A DNA stretch of 64,000 nucleotides from Mobula hypostoma (lineage: Eukaryota), in NCBI RefSeq assembly GCF_963921235.1, contig NC_086108.1:54252001-54316000 (forward strand). Direction: 5' to 3'. The first letter of the stretch is position 1, and each line of letters opens with the position of its first letter. Under the pieces are notes generated by a model. It had not been told where the DNA came from, ran no database searches, and was given only the letters and a program-made list of their open reading frames with translations. Positions 54,575 through 63,635 of the stretch are shown here, one piece after another. The position numbers were made by a program, and so were the translations under genes.

Positions 54575-57415
54575 GGTGAACAGCCAGAGGTCATGGATCA
54601 TATTGGTACCAACGACATAGGTAGGGAAAGGGAGGAGGTGCTGAAAACAGACTACAGGGAGTTAGGAAGGAAGTTGAGAAGCAGGACCTCAAAGGTAGTA
54701 ATCTTGGGATTACTGCCTGTGCCATATGACAGTGAGTATAGGAATAGAGTGAGGTGGTGGATAAATGTGTGGCTGAGGGATTGGAGCAGAGGGCAGGGAT
54801 TCAGATTTCTGGATATCTGGGACTCTTTTGGGGCAGGCACGACCTTTACAAAAAGGATGGGTTGCACTTGAATCCGAGGGGGACCAATATCCTGGTGGGA
54901 AGGTTTGCTGAGGCTGTTGGGGATAGTTTAAACTGGAACTGAAGAGACGGAGGAAGGGGCGGTTGGCTCACAAATAGAGAAAGCTTGGAGACAGTGCAAG
55001 AGGGAAGATAGGCAGGTGATAGAGAAGGGATACGCTCAGACCGCTAGTTTGAGATGTGTCTTTTTTAATGCAAGAAGCATCATGAACAAAGCAGCTGAGC
55101 TTAGAGCGTGGATCAGTACTTGGAGCTATGATATTATGGCCATTACAGAGACTTGGATGGCTCAGGGGCAGGAATGGTTACTTAGAGTGCCAGGCTTTAA
55201 ATGTTTCAGAAAGGACAGGGAGGGAGGCAAAAGAGGTGGGAGCATGGCACTGCTGATCAGATGGTGTCATGGCTGCAGAAAAGGAGGAAGTCATGGAGGG
55301 ATTGTCTACTGAGTCTGTGGGTGGGAGTTAGAAACAGGAAGAGGGTCAATAACTCTACTGGGTGTTTTTTATAGACCACTCAATGGTAACAGGGGCACCG
55401 AGGAGAAGATACAGAGACAGATTCTGGAAAGGAGTAATAATAACAGGGTTGTTGTGGTAGGAGATTTTAATTTCTCAAATATTGAGTGGAATCCCCCTAG
55501 AGGGAGGGGTTCAGATGAGGTGGAGTTTGTTAGGTGTGTTCAGGAAGGTTTCCTGACACAATATGCAGATAAGCCTACAAGAGGAGAGGCTGTACTTGAT
55601 CTGGTATTGGGAATTTATAAGAATAGCAGGAAGGAGCTTAAGAATGAAATTAGGAAAGCCAGGAGGGGCCATGAGAAGGCCTTAGTGAGCAAGATTAAAG
55701 AGAACCCCAAAGCATTCAACAAGTATGTGAAGAGCAAGAGGATATGATGTGAGAAAATAGGACCAATCAAATGTGACAGTGGAAAAATGTGTATGGAATC
55801 GGAGGAGATAGCAGACGTACTTAATGAGTACTTTGCTTCATTATTCACTACGGAAAAGGATCTTGGCGATTGTAGGGATGATTTACAGAGGATGTAAAGC
55901 TTGAGCATATTGACATTAAGAAAGGGGATGTGCTGGAGCTTTTGGAAAGCATCTAGTTGGTTAAGTCTCTGGGACCGGATGAGATGTACCCCAGGCTACT
56001 GTGGGAGGCGAGGGAGGAGATTGCTGAGCCTCTGGCAATGATCTTTGCATCATCAATGGGGATGGGAGAGGTTCCAGAGTATCCCTTATTCAAGAAAGAA
56101 AATAGAGATAGCCCAGGAAATTATAGACCAGTGAGACTTACTTCAGTGGTTGGTAAGTTGATGGAAAAGATCCCGAGAGGCAGGGTTTATGAACATTTGG
56201 AGAGGCATAATATGATTAGGAATGGTCAGTATGGCTTTATCAAAGGCAGGTCGTGCCTTACGAGCCTGATTGAATTTTGAGGATGTGGCTAAATACGTTG
56301 ATGAAGGAAGAGCAGTGGATGTAGTGTCTGTGGATTTCAGCAAGGCATTTGATAAGGTACCCCATGCAAGGCTTATTGCGAAAGTAAGAAGGCACGGGAT
56401 CCAAGGGGACTTTGATTTGTGGATCCAGAACTGGCTTGCCCATTGAAGGCAAAGAGTGGTTGTAGACGGGTCATATTCTTTATGGAGGTTGGTGACCAGT
56501 GGAGTGCCTCAGGGATCTGTTCTGGGACCCCTTCTCTTTGTAATTTTTATAAATGGCCTGGATGAGGAAATGGAGGGATGGGTTTGTAAATTTGCTGATG
56601 ACACAAAAGTTGGGGGTGTTGTGGATACTGTGGAGGGCTGTCAAAGATTACAGTGGGACATTGATAGGATGCAGAACTGGGCTGAGAAGTAGCAGATGGA
56701 GTTAAACCCAGATAAGTGTGAGGTGGTTCATTTTGGTAGGTCAAATATGATGGTAGAATATAGTATTAATGATAAGACTCTTGGCAGTGTGGAGGATCAG
56801 AGGAATCTTGGGGTCTGAGTCCATAGGACACTCAAAGCTGTTGCGCAGGTTGACTGTGTGGTTAAGAAGGTATACGGTGCATTGTCCTTCATCAACCATG
56901 AGATTGAGTTTAAGAGCCGAGAGGTAATGTTACAGCTAGATAGGACCCTGGTCAGACCCCACTTGGAGTACTGTGCTCAGTTCTGGTCACCTCACTACAG
57001 GAAGGATGTGGACGCCATAGAAAGGGTGCAGAGGAGATTTACAAGGATGTTGCCTGGATTGGGGAGCATGCCTTATGAGAATAGATTGAGTGAACTCAGC
57101 CTTTTCTCCTTGGAGCGGCGGAGGATGAGAGGTTGTCTGATGAGAGGGATTGATCATGTGGATAGTCAGAGACTTTTTCCTAGGGCTGAAGTGGCTAACA
57201 CGAGAGGGCACAGTTTTAATGCTTGGAAGTTGGTATAAAGGAGGTGTCAGGGGGCAAGTTTTTTATGCAGAGAGTGGTGAGTGTGTGGAATGGGTTGCCG
57301 GCGACGGTGGTGGAGGCAGATACAGTAGGGTCTTTTAAGAGACTCTTGGATAGGTACATGGAGCTTAGAAAAATTGAGAGCGATGGGTAACCTGAGGTAA
57401 TTTCTAAAGTAAGTA
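54575..57415 (+). mobile_element. CR1 LINE (ORF1 esterase remnant plus ORF2 with a deletion at ~55612)
   Basis: HIGTNDIG, FFNARS, KFADDTK motifs; colinear with the 11343 copy; tail cut at a TA. Confidence 0.92.
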
Positions 57416-58157
57416 CAGGTTTCCCCGGCTATCCGAATGTAGAGCGCTCCTATGAAACTGTTCGTAAGCCAAAATGGCGTAAAGCGAAGAAGCAATTACC
57501 ATTGATTTATATGGGAAAAATTTTTGGGTGTTCCCAGACCCAAAAAATAACCTACCAAATAACACTAAAACTTAAAATAACGGTAACATATAATAAAAGC
57601 AGGAATGATATAATAAGTACACAGCCTATATAAAGTAGAAATAAAGTATGTACAGTGTAATTTCACTTAACAGAATCAGGGAGTTTGAGCCAAAATCAAT
57701 TTGTTGAAAAAAAATCGGTGTTTACATGCATGTGCACGTCACGCATTTGCATGTACACGCACGTCATGCATGCACACGTACACGCATTCGCATGTCACAC
57801 GTGCACACACCTACCCCCGCAAGGCTTCATGGTCATGGTAGTCTTTCTCGGGGTAAACACAAGTTTAAAGTGAGTGCAAACAACAGGAATTCTGCAGATG
57901 CTGGAAATTCAAGCAACACACATCAAAGTTGCTGGTGAACGCAGCAGGCCAGGCAGCATCTCTAGGAAGAGGTATAGTCGACGTTTTGGGCCGAGACCCT
58001 TCGTCAGGACTGATTTAAAGGTGCCTGGTTTAAAGTGAGTGTCTTTTTTCGTAAAAGTGAAAATCCTCTTTTGGTTAACAAAAGCAGGTACTAATGTAGG
58101 TCTTTCGTAAAAGCGAAATGTCGTAAAGAGAACGTTCTGAAAGCAGGGGACACCCTG
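57416..58157 (-). mobile_element. Short Tigger-like MITE of the same TIR family
   Basis: caggtttcccc... and ...ggggacaccctg termini; no coding remnant. Confidence 0.82.
57877..58027 (-). mobile_element. Penelope terminal fragment with mutated hammerhead
   Basis: 14-bp TSD gtttaaagtgagtg (57863-57876, 58028-58041). Confidence 0.85.
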
Positions 58158-61100
58158 CTAATTAAAATGGCTTCTTTGTTATGTTAACTGCTGAGAAAAT
58201 TCTCTCTCTAGCAGCTTGTTTGGGTTATAGAGTGAGTTGTATTCTGTTGCTAACCAATTGGGATAGATGTTATTTTTTGTGTGTCTGTAAGCTATTGTAT
58301 GCGCGGGTTTTTGGGCAGAAGGCACGATGGGGAGAGAGAGAGTGGACGCGATGCTGTGAGCTGGCTGATGGGACGGACCCCAAGCCGCAGTCCGAGGTTC
58401 AGGGTCTTCAGCGAGGAGAGGAGACGAAGACAGACTCGTGGAGTGTCTGGTTGATCACCGTGGTTGGTCCCAGGCGGCGGGTCGAGGTGGTCGGAGGGGA
58501 TCGAATGGTGAAAAGAGGACCGTTACTAGAGCTCCAACTGGTGTGCACGAAGAGATTGAACTTTGATAAGTTTGGCACCTTTTCCTTTTATATTTTATCT
58601 CTATTAATTATATAGTTCCAGTAATATCTATGAATTGTAATCATTTAATCGTATATGGTGTATTGTCTGTTATTTGGTGGGGTGGGGTACATCACACAGC
58701 ATCCACACAAACTTGATTACCCAGTTTGGTGGGGCCGAAGGCTGCTCCCCCTAGATGACAGTGAGTTGAGCGAGCCTGAGGCTTACCAGGGGGAGCTACA
58801 TTTGGGGGCTTAGTCTGAGATTGGATTCAGTGGTGTGCTGCCTGAGTGCCCTGTTTAAATCAGTAATGTGTGTCTCTGTGGGATTGCTGGTTATTACTGC
58901 ATGCGTGTTGAGTGGAGTCTTTGAGTTCAGATTAGTGCTGACGAGTTGGTGGTGGGACCAGGGGCTGTCCATACTGTTAGGAGAGAGAGGAAAGAGTGGT
59001 CTGATTCAGAGATGGTGTCTGCGAATAAATGTTCCAGCTATGGCGGTGTCCGCCTGGCTTTTGGGATATTGTCCACCCCTAAAGGGGCAGAGGCATAAGA
59101 GATGTGGGCGGAGCGGATCTCTCAGTTGTTAGATGAGTGGCAGTGCCTCAGTTGAGGGAGAGTGACAGGGATTGGTTGAAAGTTTGAGTAGGCAGGCTGT
59201 TGACGGTGTTAGAACTGTCAGGTTCAATTACCCTGCAGTGACAGCTGCCAGTTATCTGAAAGAGGGGGAAAAGTTTTCGGTGTATCTTCTGTGGCTAGGA
59301 GGGTAGCTAAATTTCTTGCAGTGCCGGGGGATCATTTCAAGGGATCAGCCCCTCCCTCAGTTGTTCAGTTGAGCAGAGGGGTGTCGGGAAACTTAGTGGA
59401 GGCCCTGTGGGGGAACGGCTTGGGGTCTCTGGGGGAGCACGTTTCCAGCAATGTATCAGGGAACTTCCGAAAGGAAAAGACCCTATTCCTGAAGGCTTAG
59501 AGGGACCACGCCCCTGTGTGTCGTTACGGATAGATGGAAGCTATGCTAAAGCCATCCTCGACACCGGGGCGCAGGTCAAGTTGTTGTACAGTTCATTTTA
59601 CAACCAATGTCTGAAGCATTTACCCTTGACAATATTAAGTGCACTGGTGTTCATGGGGGCATTGTCTGTGCACCCAGCGTTTCAAGCTGCTTGTGAGGAC
59701 GTGTGTAGCAGCCTTGGGCTGGTACCAAATTTAAACGAGAGCCGATTGTGGTACGGCCTGGGGGAAGTATCTGAGGGTGAGACCCTCTTAGTAGAGCTCC
59801 GAAATACCATGAGGGAGGGGAGTTGACCGCTGAAGACACCTCGGTGAGAGAGAGGTCGCGGTGACTGGACCCTGTAGCCATGGAAGACGTAGGCGGTGTA
59901 GGTGTGAATTGTAGGACTCTGAACAGGCTCACTGTCATTGACCAGAATACGGTCCTGAGGGCCGAAGACGCTATGGTCTGTTTGTATGGTGCGACGTGGT
60001 TTAATGTGCTGGATCTGAGGAGTGGATATTGCCAGATCCCGATGAGTGAGGCCAACAAGGAGAAGACAGCCGTTATAGGTTCCCTAGGATTCTTTCGATC
60101 TGAGAAGGTGCCCCAGGGCATATCCGGAGCCCCTGCAATCTTTCCGCGGGGCATGAGGAAGTCCATGGGGGATGTAGAGGTGTTTGGAGTTTTGGCGTAT
60201 GTGGATGAACACCTAGGGTTTGGATTCGCCTTGGGGGACAATGATGTGAGGCAAGGGCTGGAGCCTGGGACAACGTTCACGCTTGTCAAAGTGGAGATGG
60301 AAAAACGGAATTCCGAGCTGAAACTGTGGTCATGTACTGTTGAATTAATCCAGAGAGACGAAACAATGACCAACCTTCAAAAGGATCAGCAGGCATTGAT
60401 CAAGGCATCGATCCAGAACAGATTGGAAGAAGCTGGTGGTGTAACTGCATCCCAGATGGAGATGGACATGAAGAATGGGTCAGAATTGCTGAGACTGGGG
60501 CGAGAGTTGGAGGAGTCAGAGAAGAAGCTGACGTCTCGACTGCAAGAGGCTGCAGAGGATCTTCGAAGGATGATGTGCTGGATATGTGGTACATGCTGCC
60601 TTTCGCTAACTTCCCCTTGATTGAGGAAGAAACTTTTGGTCCTTCCCCCACTGAGTCAGGTGTAGTGAGGAGGGCTAGCTGTGGGCAGCCTGGGTTACAG
60701 CAGGACCCGGAAGGAAAAGAAATGGGGCCCCGGACACGGAGCAGAGGGCTCCGAGTTGCAGTGGGGGCATGAGTGAGAGATTGAGAGAGGAGTTGGCAAA
60801 CAGACTCGAGGTATCCCTGGTAGTGTCTGAGCCTCAAGGGTTTAGGTGAGGGGGTACGGAGGTCTCAGAGAATTAGGAAACTCCCAGATAGGTTGGCCTA
60901 TGTAGTGCCCGTGGGATCGGGCGTAAGGTCCACTGTTTGGGGAGCAATGTCACTGTTTGTACCTGGTTTGGGTTTTTCTGTCTGCAGGAATGGTTGGCGA
61001 GTTATTTAGAAGTCATGAGGACATGACTTTATTTGGTGGGGGGAGAGAGGAAGGGGTTTCTTCTTTTATGTTACTGCTGTAGGCTAATTAAAGTGGCTTC

Positions 61101-61695
61101 TTTGTTATGTTAACTGCTGGGAAAGTTCTCTCACTAGCAGCTTGTTTGGTTTATAGAGTGAGTTGTATTCCGTTGCTAACCAATTTGGATAGATGTTATT
61201 TTTTGTGTGTCTGTAAGCTATTGTATGCGCGGGTTTTTGGGCAGAAGGCGCGATGGGGAGAAAGAGAGAGAGAGTGGACGCGATGCTGTGAGCTGGCCGA
61301 TGGGATGGACTCCAAGCCAGAGTCTGAAGTCCTGGGTCTTCGGTGAGAAGAGGAGACGAAGACAGACTCATGTGGAGCGGCTGGTCGACCACTGTGGTTG
61401 GTCCCAGGCGGCGGGTCGAAGTGGTCGGAGGGGATCGAATGGTGAAAAGAGGACTGTTACTAGAGCTCCAACTGGTGTGCACGAAGAGGTTGAACTTTGA
61501 TAAGTTTGGTGCCTTTTACTTTCCTCTTATATTTTAATCATTTAATCGTATATGGTGTACTGTCTGTTTTTTGGCGGGGTGAGGTACATCACACAGCATC
61601 CACACAAACTTGATTACCCAGTTTGACAGGGCTGAAGGCTGCTCCCCCTAGACGACAGCGAGTTGAGCGACCCTGAGGCTTACAGGGGGGCTACA
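58158..61695 (+). mobile_element. Gypsy LTR retrotransposon, internally deleted, carrying a myosin-rod-like insert
   Basis: LTRs at 58158-58800 (5'-clipped) and ~61048-61695, both ending gctaca; degenerate tRNA-Pro PBS at 58801-58822; protease [17 protein letters not shown]...PQG...YVDE; pol-end motif RRSQRIRKLPDRL; PPT at ~61035-61047. Confidence 0.9.
60279..60557 (+). pseudogene. Captured sarcomeric myosin heavy-chain rod fragments inside the Gypsy pol ORF
   Basis: TLVKVEMEK...[14 protein letters not shown] / [15 protein letters not shown]...RELEE / [18 protein letters not shown] align without gaps to three separate segments of the myosin II rod as recalled. Confidence 0.8.
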
Positions 61696-62849
61696 GAAGT
61701 AACTTGGACCATAGACTGCCATACTGGTACTAAAGAAGCCTCTCGTGTCACTGGAGTCTGCCAGTCTCTGGATTTCCAGGGCTTTGGGATAACGCTTGAA
61801 GAACAAAAACTAATCGAAAAAATAGTTGTGAGTCTGTTGGTTTATTTGGGACACTATGCCACTTAAATGGGGGATAGTGTCCCAAAAATTCCCCCAAAGT
61901 CCACCAAAAATTCTTTAGCCCCTTCTCCCTGTGCTGGACATTTGCCTTGGCTTCTCTTCTGGCCTTGCTGCTACTACCATTCTGCCAGGCACAGGAAGCT
62001 TTCCTTTACTTGAAGATAAATTATTCTGTCTCCCTAACATTATCATTCAACCAATCCTGATGTTTTCTGGACCTATACCCAAGGATTCTGTAGCAGTTAC
62101 TTGAAAACAAACCAAAACCGTTCGGAGACTAAGCATGGGGGGTTGACACTGTGACGCGCTCTCCACAATAGCGAAGTTCAAAATCAAAGAAAGTACGTTT
62201 GTTTCTTTAGTAAGTCATCAAAGACGAACAGTCTTGTAATGATTAAAAAAAACTAATGAGACTGAAAGTAGCGATATAATGAAATAAGTGGTAACATTAG
62301 CAATTTAACATATTTAAGAGTATTTAAACATTAATAAGTGATCATAACATACTTAAGCATTCTTAAGTGTTCTTAAGAGATCAACAAAAAAAATAATTCT
62401 GGCTGCTTCTCTGGTTCTACCTAGACTGAACTGACCTAAGACAAAGCATCAATGCATAACTGTACTCTTCGTTTCTACAACGTCCCAACCCACGTGACAA
62501 ATTACCTACAATAAACGTGCAACAAAATACAATTCAGACATACATAAAATAGATACGTGACTCCTATAGATGCTTTTGCAGGTATTGAGGATGGTGAATT
62601 TAAGGAAACACCAGCATTATTTAATATCCCCAGGATATTCCTGAGGTTAAGTCAGGAATATCACTCTAAACATTGTGTAGTGGACACACAAGTGTATGTT
62701 CGAAACTGTTCAACAACAATCTCCTATCCCAATTAAGTGGCGTAGTGTCCCAAATACACTAATGGAATCACAGCTATTTTTTTCAATTAGTTTTTAGAGT
62801 TATCCCACATATGCAGCTGCCCTGATTAACTGGAATCCACTGTAATTAT

Positions 62850-63635
62850 ATATCTGGTCCCTTAGAATATTGTCCAATAACTTGCATACTACTGATGTCA
62901 GGCCCACTGGCTTATAATTTCCTGGCTTATTCTTGGAGCCTTTCTTAAACAAGGAACAACATTAACTATCCTCCAATCCTCTAGCATCTCACTGGTGGCT
63001 AAGGATGTTTTAAATATCTCTGCACTAGCCTCCCACAGGATATGAGGGAACACCTTGTCTGGCTTTGGGGATTTATCCACCCTCATTTTCCTCAAGACAG
63101 CAAGCTATGTAATCTATATACAGTCCATGACCTCACTGTTGCTTTGTCTCATTTATATTGGCTCTGTTGCAAAAATTCCATCTCTATTAAGTTCTCCCCA
63201 TCTCTTTCGGCTCCAAGCATAGATGACCGCTCTGATCTTCCAGAGGACCAATTTTGTCCCTTGCTATCATTTTGCTCTAAATATCTGTCGAAGCCCTTGG
63301 GATTTTCCTTCACCTTGCTGCATGAGCAACCTTATGCCTTCTTTTAGCCCTCCTGATTTCTTTCCTAAGTGTACCCTTGAATTTCTTGTACTACTCAAGA
63401 ACTTCATTTGCTGCTTCCTGCAAATACCTGCTACACAGCTCCCTTTTCTTAACCGGGCTCAATATCTCTCAACAACGAAGATTCACTAAACCTGCTTGCT
63501 ACCCATGCCTATTATTCTGACAGGAGCATACAAACGCTGTACTCTCAAAATTTCACTTTTGCAGGCCTCCCATTTTCCAAGTGCATATTTGCTGGAAAAC
63601 AACCTGTCCCAATCCACACTTGCCAAATCTTTTCT
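62850..63635 (-). mobile_element. CR1 fragment
   Basis: VDKSPKPD...EDWRIVNVVP motif. Confidence 0.75.

What the first reader, a model, noticed from the sequence alone, without database searches (positions are those of the whole stretch)
59880..60620. Gypsy retrotransposon with myosin heavy-chain rod segments fused in frame to its reverse transcriptase
Seen: inside a two-LTR element, ORF 59880-60620 runs from RT motifs (LDLRSGY, PQG, YVDE) without a stop into a 93-aa coiled-coil block (60279-60557). Gypsy pol-end sequence resumes after it. No RNase H or integrase core is visible. From recalled human MYH7 sequence, the block matches three non-adjacent rod segments in native order and without gaps. 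[43 protein letters not shown] matches [43 protein letters not shown] (18/43 by hand). [36 protein letters not shown] matches [36 protein letters not shown] (18/36). [18 protein letters not shown] matches ELEEAKKKLAQRLQEAEE (13/18). Segments 2 and 3 are joined through a shared LEE, as expected for homology-driven template jumps. Inference: retrovirus-style transduction of a host muscle-myosin mRNA (SELLRL.RELEE looks MYH16-like), then compacted by frame-preserving deletions and possibly amplified as a family. I know of no description of this.
Basis: partly seen in the sequence, partly recalled or inferred. Interest (0 to 1): 0.88.

Follow-up and report, generated by a model that had tools for sequence, protein, structure and literature searches.

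The report
Ray retrotransposon family carrying myosin fragment
A crippled jumping gene in this manta/stingray-type genome long ago swallowed an intron-free piece of a muscle myosin gene and has since copied it to hundreds or thousands of places, a known kind of event seen here on an unusually large scale.

Summary
ORF 59865-60620 lies inside a two-LTR element. It runs from a Ty3/Gypsy-type RT remnant (Pfam RVT_1 E=1.9e-8; best solved relative Ty3 RT) into a block that matches only myosin heavy-chain rods, in three collinear pieces.

The window block alone is marginal against the PDB (E 0.024-0.085). It beats 200 of 200 shuffles against host muscle-myosin exons. Longer family members settle the origin: P0004 matches a 1943-aa myosin at E=6.2e-5 in 1.84 billion proteins, and 1e-17 pairwise, over rod residues 876-1191 and 1386-1434.

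Host intron sites inside the captured stretch are absent, so the source was spliced mRNA. The window copy is a deletion derivative. One loss is a family-wide 276-nt in-frame deletion between two 7-nt repeats. Two further deletions are absent from copy L002, and one of these shifts the frame.

The family has at least hundreds of copies here and occurs in Mobula, Hypanus and Hemitrygon. No RNase H or integrase was found, so it is non-autonomous. Substitutions show no amino-acid constraint. However, shared indels preserve the frame and some copies keep 812-836-codon open frames.

The mechanism matches LTR-mediated retroposition (Tan et al. 2016). The donor paralogue (MYH16?) is unresolved.

The parts
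58157..58800 (+). 5' LTR. It ends ...GCTACA. Its first ~30 nt are degraded or deleted compared with the 3' LTR; the true start is perhaps near 58142.
   Evidence: Direct repeats. blastn 58157-58800 versus 61083-61695: 86.0% over 652 columns, 47 gap columns. Ends read.
59100..59291 (+). Gag-like (PNMA-type) remnant, broken by stops in this copy. The 5' limit is approximate.
   Evidence: tblastn of the L050 ORF aa 140-188 onto the window copy (L001), 69% identity with 1 stop. PNMA Pfam 28.2 bits (cut-off 25) in the equivalent part of L051 and 21.1 bits in L050.
59311..59826 (+). 171-aa open frame with an aspartic-protease remnant (LDTGAQ).
   Evidence: Pfam RVP 19.9 bits, E=9.6e-4, just under the 20.7 cut-off.
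59865..60269 (+). Ty3/Gypsy-type reverse-transcriptase remnant, covering only Pfam RVT_1 profile positions 62-156 of 205. The catalytic motif reads YVDE here (60198-60209).
   Evidence: Pfam RVT_1 E=1.9e-8. Ty3 RT 4ol8 E=1.1e-10.
60270..60430 (+). Myosin rod piece 1 (about residues 965-1010 of myosin P0019). It crosses a host intron site at about 985 with no intron present. This copy has a 15-nt in-frame deletion near 60274 that copy L002 lacks.
60424..60430 (+). TGGAAGA: the joint left by a subfamily-wide 276-nt (92-codon) in-frame deletion between two copies of this 7-mer.
   Evidence: Compared with L050, which holds both copies and the 276 nt between them. Deletion seen in 7 of 8 W-type copies.
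60431..60518 (+). Myosin rod piece 2 (EAGG...ELEES, about residues 1163-1191).
   Evidence: tblastn against host MYH exon L032:5331-5438, 55.6% of 36 aa, E=1.8e-8. blastn 73% of 97 nt, E=2.7e-11..
60507..60558 (+). Myosin rod piece 3 (about residues 1392-1408). It is joined to piece 2 through a shared LEE(S/A). It is cut short at 60558 by a deletion that copy L002 lacks.
60558..60620 (+). Breakpoint: 85 nt present in copy L002 are replaced by 3 nt here (net -82 nt, frameshift). An out-of-frame read-through then runs to the stop at 60618-60620.
   Evidence: Pairwise blastn against L002.
60562..60772 (+). Family 'tail' ([14 protein letters not shown]...), which follows the myosin part in frame in other copies. 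Here it is in another frame. Its origin is unknown.
   Evidence: No Pfam family. Only family members found.
61035..61047 (+). Polypurine tract GGTGGGGGGAGAG.
   Evidence: The same tract abuts the 3' LTR in L050 and L051.
61048..61695 (+). 3' LTR. The start is inferred from L050/L051. The part matching the 5' LTR is 61083-61695.

Best explanation
This is one decayed copy of a large, non-autonomous Ty3/Gypsy-derived LTR retrotransposon family of myliobatiform rays.

In the family's ancestor, the 3' part of pol (RT thumb, RNase H, integrase) was replaced by reverse-transcribed, spliced mRNA of a sarcomeric myosin heavy chain. The captured pieces cover rod residues about 876-1120, 1160-1191 and 1386-1434. 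They are joined in frame to the RT remnant and followed by a short tail of unknown origin.

Inferred steps:
- The capture arose by RT template switching onto a co-packaged myosin mRNA, as in LTR-mediated retroposition.
- The chimera kept LTRs, a polypurine tract and presumably PBS and packaging signals, so an autonomous Gypsy element copied it in trans.

Shown: subfamilies then arose by further internal deletions at short repeats. The window copy belongs to a short ('W') subfamily and carries two further deletions that copy L002 lacks, one of them frame-shifting.

The myosin piece is most likely a passenger. It shows no detectable amino-acid constraint.
For: Myosin origin:
- phmmer of the long member P0004 against 1.84e9 proteins gave 16 hits at E<=1e-3. 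Fourteen are short family members. Two are myosins: P0019 (1943 aa, E=6.2e-5, query 46-200 to 923-1080) and the fragment P0017 (E=2e-5).
- BLASTP of P0004 against P0019: 72.8 bits, E=1e-17, over 876-1191, plus 1386-1434.
- Window block against a host MYH exon: 55.6% aa and 73% nt identity. Shuffle control 0 of 200.

Spliced source:
- Host exon borders lie at about 903/904, 985, 1044 and 1092-1097 in three host paralogues.
- The element runs through these sites without introns. L050 has an 836-aa uninterrupted frame. Window aa 1-46 bridges host intron L032:4135-4251.

LTR element:
- LTR pairs in the window, L050 and L051.
- L051 has TG..CA ends, a 4-bp target duplication CTTG and a polypurine tract.
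- Ty3-like RT and PNMA-like gag.

Non-autonomous:
- No RNase H or integrase was seen in the window's internal ORFs, and L050 and L051 (8 kb each) hold no other element ORF of 150 aa or more.
- The longest open frame among the 143 + 150 scored copies is 836 aa.

Family:
- 806, 1588 and 1304 first-look candidates, with 40/40, 143/143 and 150/150 scored matches.
- 7 of 7 other W-type loci align continuously across the RT-myosin joint.
- Members occur in Mobula hypostoma, M. birostris, Hypanus sabinus and Hemitrygon akajei.

Deletion derivative.

Passenger:
- Nucleotide-aligned dN/dS in frame is 0.55-0.70 for the myosin part between subfamilies, versus 0.46-1.04 out of frame.
- There is no third-position excess, for example W versus P7 0.142/0.216/0.165.
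- About 80 of 150 copies have no stop in the 247-aa stretch (hand count). A neutral simulation gives 0.5-0.6.
Against: - Shared (master-lineage) indels keep the frame: 6 of 7 distinct events are multiples of 3, versus 33 of 107 private ones. Fisher p=0.006, or 0.04 against private indels longer than 1 nt.
- L050 has 0 stops in 836 codons, while its other two forward frames have 50 and 55.
- 3 of 150 scored copies keep open frames of 812 aa or more.
- The single L050-L051 pair shows a third-position excess in the myosin part (0.072 versus 0.024 and 0.032).
- Together these hint at some selection for an open frame in source copies.
- No autonomous partner was identified (weak evidence).
- The original RT-myosin and myosin-tail fusion points cannot be tested for microsimilarity, because the parent element is unknown.
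- Pfam Myosin_tail_1 is not significant.
- A target-site duplication is unclear for the window copy.
Confidence: 0.85

Rival explanations
1. The RT-remnant/myosin coiled-coil fusion is a working protein of the element, or of the host. Source copies are selected to keep it open because the helical myosin piece serves some role, for example multimerisation or riding along in particles of the helper element.
For: - Frame-preserving shared indels: 6 of 7 versus 33 of 107 private, p=0.006.
- 836-, 832- and 812-codon open frames, with 0 stops versus 50 and 55 in the other forward frames of L050.
- L050-L051 third-position excess in the myosin part.
- AF2 predicts two long helices for the block, aa 153-184 and 189-235, with pLDDT up to 94.
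Against: - There is no codon-position or dN/dS signal between subfamilies in any region.
- Subfamilies have lost large and different parts of the myosin piece.
- L050 has no Met in its first 323 codons.
- In-frame deletions may follow simply from microhomology between like codons in a periodic coiled-coil sequence.
- Stop-free fractions fit neutral decay.
- No RNA or protein evidence was obtained.
Confidence: 0.1
2. The coiled-coil block is an ordinary part of pol or gag in an autonomous relative, and the element did not lose its enzymes through the capture.
For: The block lies in frame with RT. Some retroelements carry extra coiled-coil ORFs (general knowledge).
Against: - None of the 293 scored myosin-bearing copies has an open frame above 836 aa.
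- 3 of 3 elements inspected lack RNase H and integrase.
- No longer protein relatives were found (weak evidence).
- The block is homologous and collinear to host myosin, with host exon joins.
Confidence: 0.03
3. The myosin likeness is coiled-coil composition only, that is, a chance resemblance.
For: Pfam Myosin_tail_1 is not significant. The window block alone scores E 0.024-0.085 against the PDB.
Against: - 0 of 200 shuffles reach the observed score.
- 73% nucleotide identity over 97 nt to a host MYH exon.
- E=6.2e-5 in a library of 1.84e9 proteins, and E=1e-17 pairwise with composition adjustment.
- The pieces are collinear in native order.
Confidence: 0.01

Closest known systems
LTR-mediated retroposition chimeras of animals (Tan et al. 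2016, Genome Res 26:1663, PMC5131818; abstract and searched passages read)
   Same: A spliced host mRNA piece replaces part of the internal ORF of an LTR retrotransposon and is flanked on both sides by element sequence. In-frame products are possible. The chimera can behave as a non-autonomous element and be retroposed again. Short similarities lie at joints.
   Different: Those cases are young and have one or a few copies. This one is an old family with at least hundreds, and probably more than a thousand, copies. It is spread over several ray genera and has diversified into deletion subfamilies. The original fusion points could not be tested for microsimilarity here.
Maize Bs1 LTR retrotransposon with transduced host gene pieces (known to me only through its description in PMC5131818 and the listing)
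   Same: An LTR element carrying intron-free fragments of cellular genes. [quoted passage not shown]
   Different: According to that paper's text, Bs1 has 1-5 copies and pieces of three genes. Here there is one donor gene, non-adjacent pieces of it, and massive amplification in a vertebrate.
Oncogene transduction by acutely transforming retroviruses (recalled textbook knowledge; retroviral capture of host mRNA is cited in PMC5131818)
   Same: Host mRNA sequence replaces viral coding sequence, often fused in frame to a viral ORF. The result is replication-defective and depends on a helper.
   Different: No env and no infectious virus. There is no sign that the captured piece confers a cellular phenotype. 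Spread is in the germ line as a repeat family.
Non-autonomous LTR elements mobilised in trans (for example MaLR by MERVL, as stated in the introduction of PMC5131818)
   Same: LTRs and cis signals are kept, the enzymes are lost, and copy number is high.
   Different: Those elements carry no recognisable host coding insert. Here a helper element has not been identified.

Membership tests
Ty3/Gypsy (Metaviridae) LTR retrotransposon | Two long terminal repeats with TG..CA ends and a short target-site duplication | tested here: met
   LTR pairs in the window, L050 and L051. L051 has TG..CA ends and a 4-bp duplication CTTG. For the window copy itself the 5' end is degraded and the duplication is unclear.
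Ty3/Gypsy (Metaviridae) LTR retrotransposon | Reverse transcriptase of the Ty3/Gypsy type | tested here: met
   RVT_1 E=1.9e-8. The best solved relatives are Ty3 RT and Ty3 Gag-Pol, E=1.1e-10 and 7.3e-10, while retroviral RTs score E>0.5. Only a remnant is present (profile positions 62-156 of 205).
Ty3/Gypsy (Metaviridae) LTR retrotransposon | RNase H and integrase downstream of RT (needed for autonomy) | tested here: not met
   None in the window's internal ORFs and none in L050 or L051. It is therefore a non-autonomous derivative, not a complete member.
Ty3/Gypsy (Metaviridae) LTR retrotransposon | Gag and aspartic protease upstream of RT | tested here: inconclusive
   The PNMA (Gypsy-gag-derived) model scores 28.2 bits in L051 (cut-off 25) and 21.1 bits in L050. 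RVP scores 19.9 bits in the window (cut-off 20.7). These are remnants only.
LTR-mediated retrocopy chimera (Tan et al. 2016) | Internal host-derived sequence lacks the donor's introns | tested here: met
   Host intron sites at about 903/904, 985, 1044 and 1092-1097 are crossed without introns.
LTR-mediated retrocopy chimera (Tan et al. 2016) | Host piece replaces part of the element's ORF and is flanked by element sequence and both LTRs | tested here: met
   Order in the window: LTR, gag/PR remnants, RT remnant, myosin, tail, polypurine tract, LTR.
LTR-mediated retrocopy chimera (Tan et al. 2016) | Microsimilarity at the element-mRNA switch points | not testable with these tools
   The parent autonomous element and the exact donor mRNA are unknown. 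Only internal myosin-myosin joints could be read: a shared LEE(S/A), and a 7-nt TGGAAGA at the later deletion.
Myosin II heavy-chain rod (Pfam PF01576 Myosin_tail_1) | Reaches the curated Pfam score | tested here: not met
   The block gave no hit. P0007 scored 7.8 bits against a cut-off of 38.1. It is a diverged, deleted derivative of a myosin rod, not a myosin.
Myosin II heavy-chain rod (Pfam PF01576 Myosin_tail_1) | Significant, collinear sequence homology to sarcomeric myosin rods | tested here: met
   Host paralogues on C40, C68 and C2 give near-equal summed scores, for example P0003 74.7, 75.9 and 65.9 bits. The C40 exon shares the LRLRR motif and has the best aa identity (62.5% of 32) but the lowest nt identity (66%). 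NCBI names two members 'MYH16', which is an automatic label. No MYH16 reference sequence was in hand.

The most novel reading that the evidence does not exclude
Source copies of this family are under selection to keep one long open frame that fuses gag/protease/RT remnants to a myosin-derived double helix. The encoded coiled-coil protein would help the parasite-of-a-parasite to be packaged or copied by its helper element, which would explain why this chimera, unlike other LTR-mediated retrocopies, reached more than a thousand copies across ray genera.
Probability: 0.1. Interest if true: 0.75.

Novelty: new member of a known kind. Interest (0 to 1): 0.42.

Why it matters
- It shows that LTR-mediated capture of host mRNA, known in animals from young and mostly low-copy cases, can found a long-lived, high-copy repeat family in cartilaginous fish.
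- It has a practical cost. Public gene models in Mobula and Hypanus that derive from this repeat are named 'myosin heavy chain-like', 'MYH16' or even an SDHAF3 isoform. Myosin gene counts and family expansions in ray genomes can therefore be inflated.
- The family scatters ready-made helical coding modules through the genome, which is raw material for exonisation.
- The contrast between frame-preserving shared indels and neutral-looking substitutions is a small open puzzle about how non-autonomous LTR elements evolve.

Tried and rejected
- Pfam on the block and on long members: no significant Myosin_tail_1 hit.
- I first fetched non-muscle-type host MYH genes (C45, C36, C68:25.4 Mb). They do not match the block; the best E was 0.54.
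- A search for longer relatives of the gag-PR-RT part scored 8000 candidates and found none at E<=1e-5. The same search for the tail found only 3 family members. The helper element and the tail's origin therefore stay unknown.
- tblastn-based dN/dS gave 0.5-0.6 for the myosin part. I set this aside as biased by amino-acid-guided alignment. The nucleotide-aligned version with out-of-frame controls removed the signal.
- Donor paralogue: 8 cluster exons plus C2 and C40 were compared and none was clearly closest. Four of the 15 hits proved to be element copies.
- RNA evidence: no RNA holder was listed. The four runs laid were contigs of uncertain kind and say nothing on expression. Loose ends at 60276, 60424 and 60562 show only that other variants continue differently at the three deletion points.
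- Earlier-findings look-ups by place and by sequence gave nothing.
The selection tests therefore rest on 21 copies.
- AF2 on the window ORF gave mean pLDDT 53. The RT part is unreliable and only the helices are confident. No fold search was made.
- Literature: six searches found no paper on a myosin-carrying retrotransposon in rays. Supplements were not opened.
Full report
**What is in the window**

The stop-to-stop frame 59865-60620 (+) has 251 codons.
- Its first part is a reverse-transcriptase remnant. Pfam RVT_1 scores 34.7 bits, E=1.9e-8, but covers only profile positions 62-156 of 205.
- The best solved relatives are the Ty3 RT (4ol8, E=1.1e-10) and Ty3 Gag-Pol (7q5b, E=7.3e-10). Retroviral RTs score E>0.5.
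- The catalytic motif reads YVDE in this copy.
- Upstream lie a 171-aa frame with a weak protease match (RVP 19.9 bits, cut-off 20.7) and a stop-ridden gag-like stretch.
- The whole is bounded by direct repeats 58157-58800 and 61083-61695, which are 86.0% identical over 652 columns, 47 of them gaps.
- A polypurine tract at 61035-61047 abuts the 3' LTR in L050 and L051 as well.
- The internal region is about 2.2 kb, and none of the five frames scanned shows RNase H or integrase.

**Is the block myosin?**

The 93-aa block alone gives no Pfam family. Its only PDB matches are seven myosin heavy chains at a marginal E of 0.024-0.085. Three further lines make the case.
1. Controls. Against host sarcomeric MYH loci the block scores 42.0 bits, while 200 shuffles give mean 17.7 and maximum 23.9. 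Against a full-length myosin (P0019, named myosin-7-like of a lungfish) it scores 35.8 bits versus a shuffle maximum of 23.5. The three best pieces are collinear: 970-1070, 1163-1191 and 1384-1408.
2. Host DNA. Block aa 45-80 match exon L032:5331-5438 at 55.6% amino-acid identity and 73% nucleotide identity (E=1.8e-8 and 2.7e-11 in that small database).
3. Longer relatives. Six NCBI proteins of Mobula hypostoma and M. birostris share the block, and some hold much more myosin.
   - P0004 searched against 1.84 billion representatives gave 16 hits at E<=1e-3. Fourteen are short family members and two are myosins: P0019 at E=6.2e-5 and a 209-aa myosin fragment, P0017, at E=2e-5.
   - Pairwise, P0004 aligns to P0019 residues 876-1191 (72.8 bits, E=1e-17, composition-adjusted) and again to 1386-1434.

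Homology to a sarcomeric myosin rod is therefore secure, although the Pfam rod model never reaches its cut-off.

**Spliced source**

tblastn of P0019 on three host sarcomeric paralogues places exon borders at about 903/904, 985, 1044, 1092-1097, 1123 and 1400.
- The element's myosin stretch runs through the first three or four of these with no intron. In L050 it lies inside an uninterrupted 836-codon frame.
- The window's own piece 1 bridges host intron L032:4135-4251.
- The donor was thus mRNA.

- Long variants read ...SIQNRLE-DLQ...(92 codons)...VRVE-EAGG. The window's subfamily has lost these 276 nt between two copies of TGGAAGA (the deletion is in 7 of 8 W-type copies). 'IQNRLE' therefore belongs to piece 1, and its likeness to the myosin motif before EAGG is partly coincidence.
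- The piece 2/3 joint through LEE(S/A) is shared by all variants seen. It is therefore old.
- Compared with copy L002, the window copy has a 15-nt in-frame loss near 60274 and a 3-nt gain. It also has 85 nt replaced by 3 nt at 60558-60562. That change removes the last myosin stretch and shifts the frame, which is why the ORF stops at 60620.
- The sequence after the block is the family's tail, now in another frame. I found no origin for it, so 'Gypsy pol-end resumes' is unproven.

**The family**

- The block's DNA has 806 first-look candidates in this 3.48-Gb genome. All 40 scored match at 89-100%.
- Long-variant protein queries gave 1588 candidates (143 of 143 scored at E<=3.5e-44) and 1304 candidates (150 scored; the 150 listed rows all at E<=3.6e-110).
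- These sets may overlap and are lower bounds.
- 7 of 7 other short-type loci align continuously across the RT-myosin joint.
- L051 shows a textbook insertion: TG..CA LTRs, a 4-bp duplication CTTG and a polypurine tract.
- LTR pairs differ by roughly 5-7% at aligned sites (my arithmetic), so the insertions are old.
- Members occur in Mobula, Hypanus and Hemitrygon, all in the order Myliobatiformes (for two of them).
- One named Mobula hypostoma protein matches this genome at 99-100%.

**Autonomy**

- L050 and L051 (8 kb each) hold no element ORF of 150 aa or more other than the gag/PR/RT-remnant/myosin/tail frame.
- The longest open frame among the 293 scored copies is 836 aa.
- No longer protein relative was found (weak evidence).
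- The family is non-autonomous, and its helper is unidentified.

**Selection**

I compared 21 copies in three subfamilies: W (8 copies), P7 (11) and L50 (2).
- On nucleotide alignments, in-frame dN/dS between subfamilies is 0.55-0.70 for the myosin part and 0.70-0.80 for gag/PR. This is no different from the same sites read out of frame (0.46-1.04 and 0.70-0.79).
- Distances by codon position show no third-position excess.
- About 80 of the 150 listed copies have no stop in the 247-aa stretch (my hand count). This is in line with a neutral simulation, which gives 0.5-0.6 at the implied per-copy divergence.

Three results point the other way.
- 6 of 7 distinct indels shared by five or more copies are multiples of three, versus 33 of 107 private ones (Fisher p=0.006; p=0.04 against private indels longer than 1 nt).
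- L050 has 0 stops in 836 codons, versus 50 and 55 in its other two forward frames.
- The single L050-L051 pair shows a third-position excess in the myosin part.

Microhomology between like codons in a periodic rod sequence could bias deletions to be in frame without any selection. I leave this open. I put the passenger reading at 0.85 and a working protein at 0.1.

**Donor**

- The fast-type cluster on C68 (8 exons), C2 and C40 score about equally against long variants.
- The C40 exon shares the LRLRR motif (62.5% aa identity) but has the lowest nucleotide identity (66%).
- The MYH16 guess is therefore neither confirmed nor excluded. The NCBI 'MYH16' names are automatic labels.

**Structure**

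AF2 on the window ORF with 13 family proteins gives mean pLDDT 53. The RT part is unreliable. The block forms two helices, aa 153-184 and 189-235, broken at EAGG, with pLDDT up to 94.

**Comparison with what is known**

- Tan et al. 2016 (PMC5131818; abstract and passages read) describe exactly this architecture in fly, mosquito, zebrafish, chicken and mammals. Spliced mRNA replaces part of an LTR element's ORF, there is microsimilarity at the switch points, and the chimera occasionally retroposes again.
- The same text cites maize Bs1 and retroviral capture of host mRNA.
- The present case differs in scale and age: hundreds to thousands of copies, several genera and multiple deletion subfamilies.
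- Six literature searches found no description of it.
This is not independent evidence.

**Verdict**

It is a new member of a known kind, of moderate interest.

Noticed in passing
window 54932-57238 (+) and 62800-63104 (-): Frames with LINE-type reverse-transcriptase sequence (for example ...FADDTKVGG...) lie directly upstream of the element and again downstream. Calling them CR1/L2-like is from recall only.
   Followed up: no
L050 1833-4343 (G000:C55:24685132-24687642): This 836-codon frame has no stop, but it also has no Met in its first 323 codons, and it starts inside the 5' LTR. The other two forward frames hold 50 and 55 stops.
   Followed up: partly
P0010 (Hypanus sabinus, named SDHAF3 isoform X1): This gene model joins the LYR domain of SDHAF3 to the element's myosin piece 2/3 and tail. 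It is either an exonised copy or a chimeric model.
   Followed up: no
G000:C55:80570951-80571403 and 80607732-80608088: The NCBI model P0007 ('myosin heavy chain, striated muscle-like') is an element-derived exon joined to a second exon 37 kb away.
   Followed up: no
G000:C18:48745523-48746731, C50:30689110-30689772, C184:304888-305403, C157:172388-172903: Long uninterrupted matches to the myosin-tail profile (up to 407 positions) with several in-frame stops. They look like processed myosin pseudogenes unrelated to this family.
   Followed up: no
G000:C68:15.31-15.89 Mb: A tandem cluster of at least 8 sarcomeric myosin heavy-chain genes, roughly 65-117 kb apart, plus a degenerate exon at 16.025 Mb.
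   Followed up: partly
Capture may be recurrent here.
   Followed up: no
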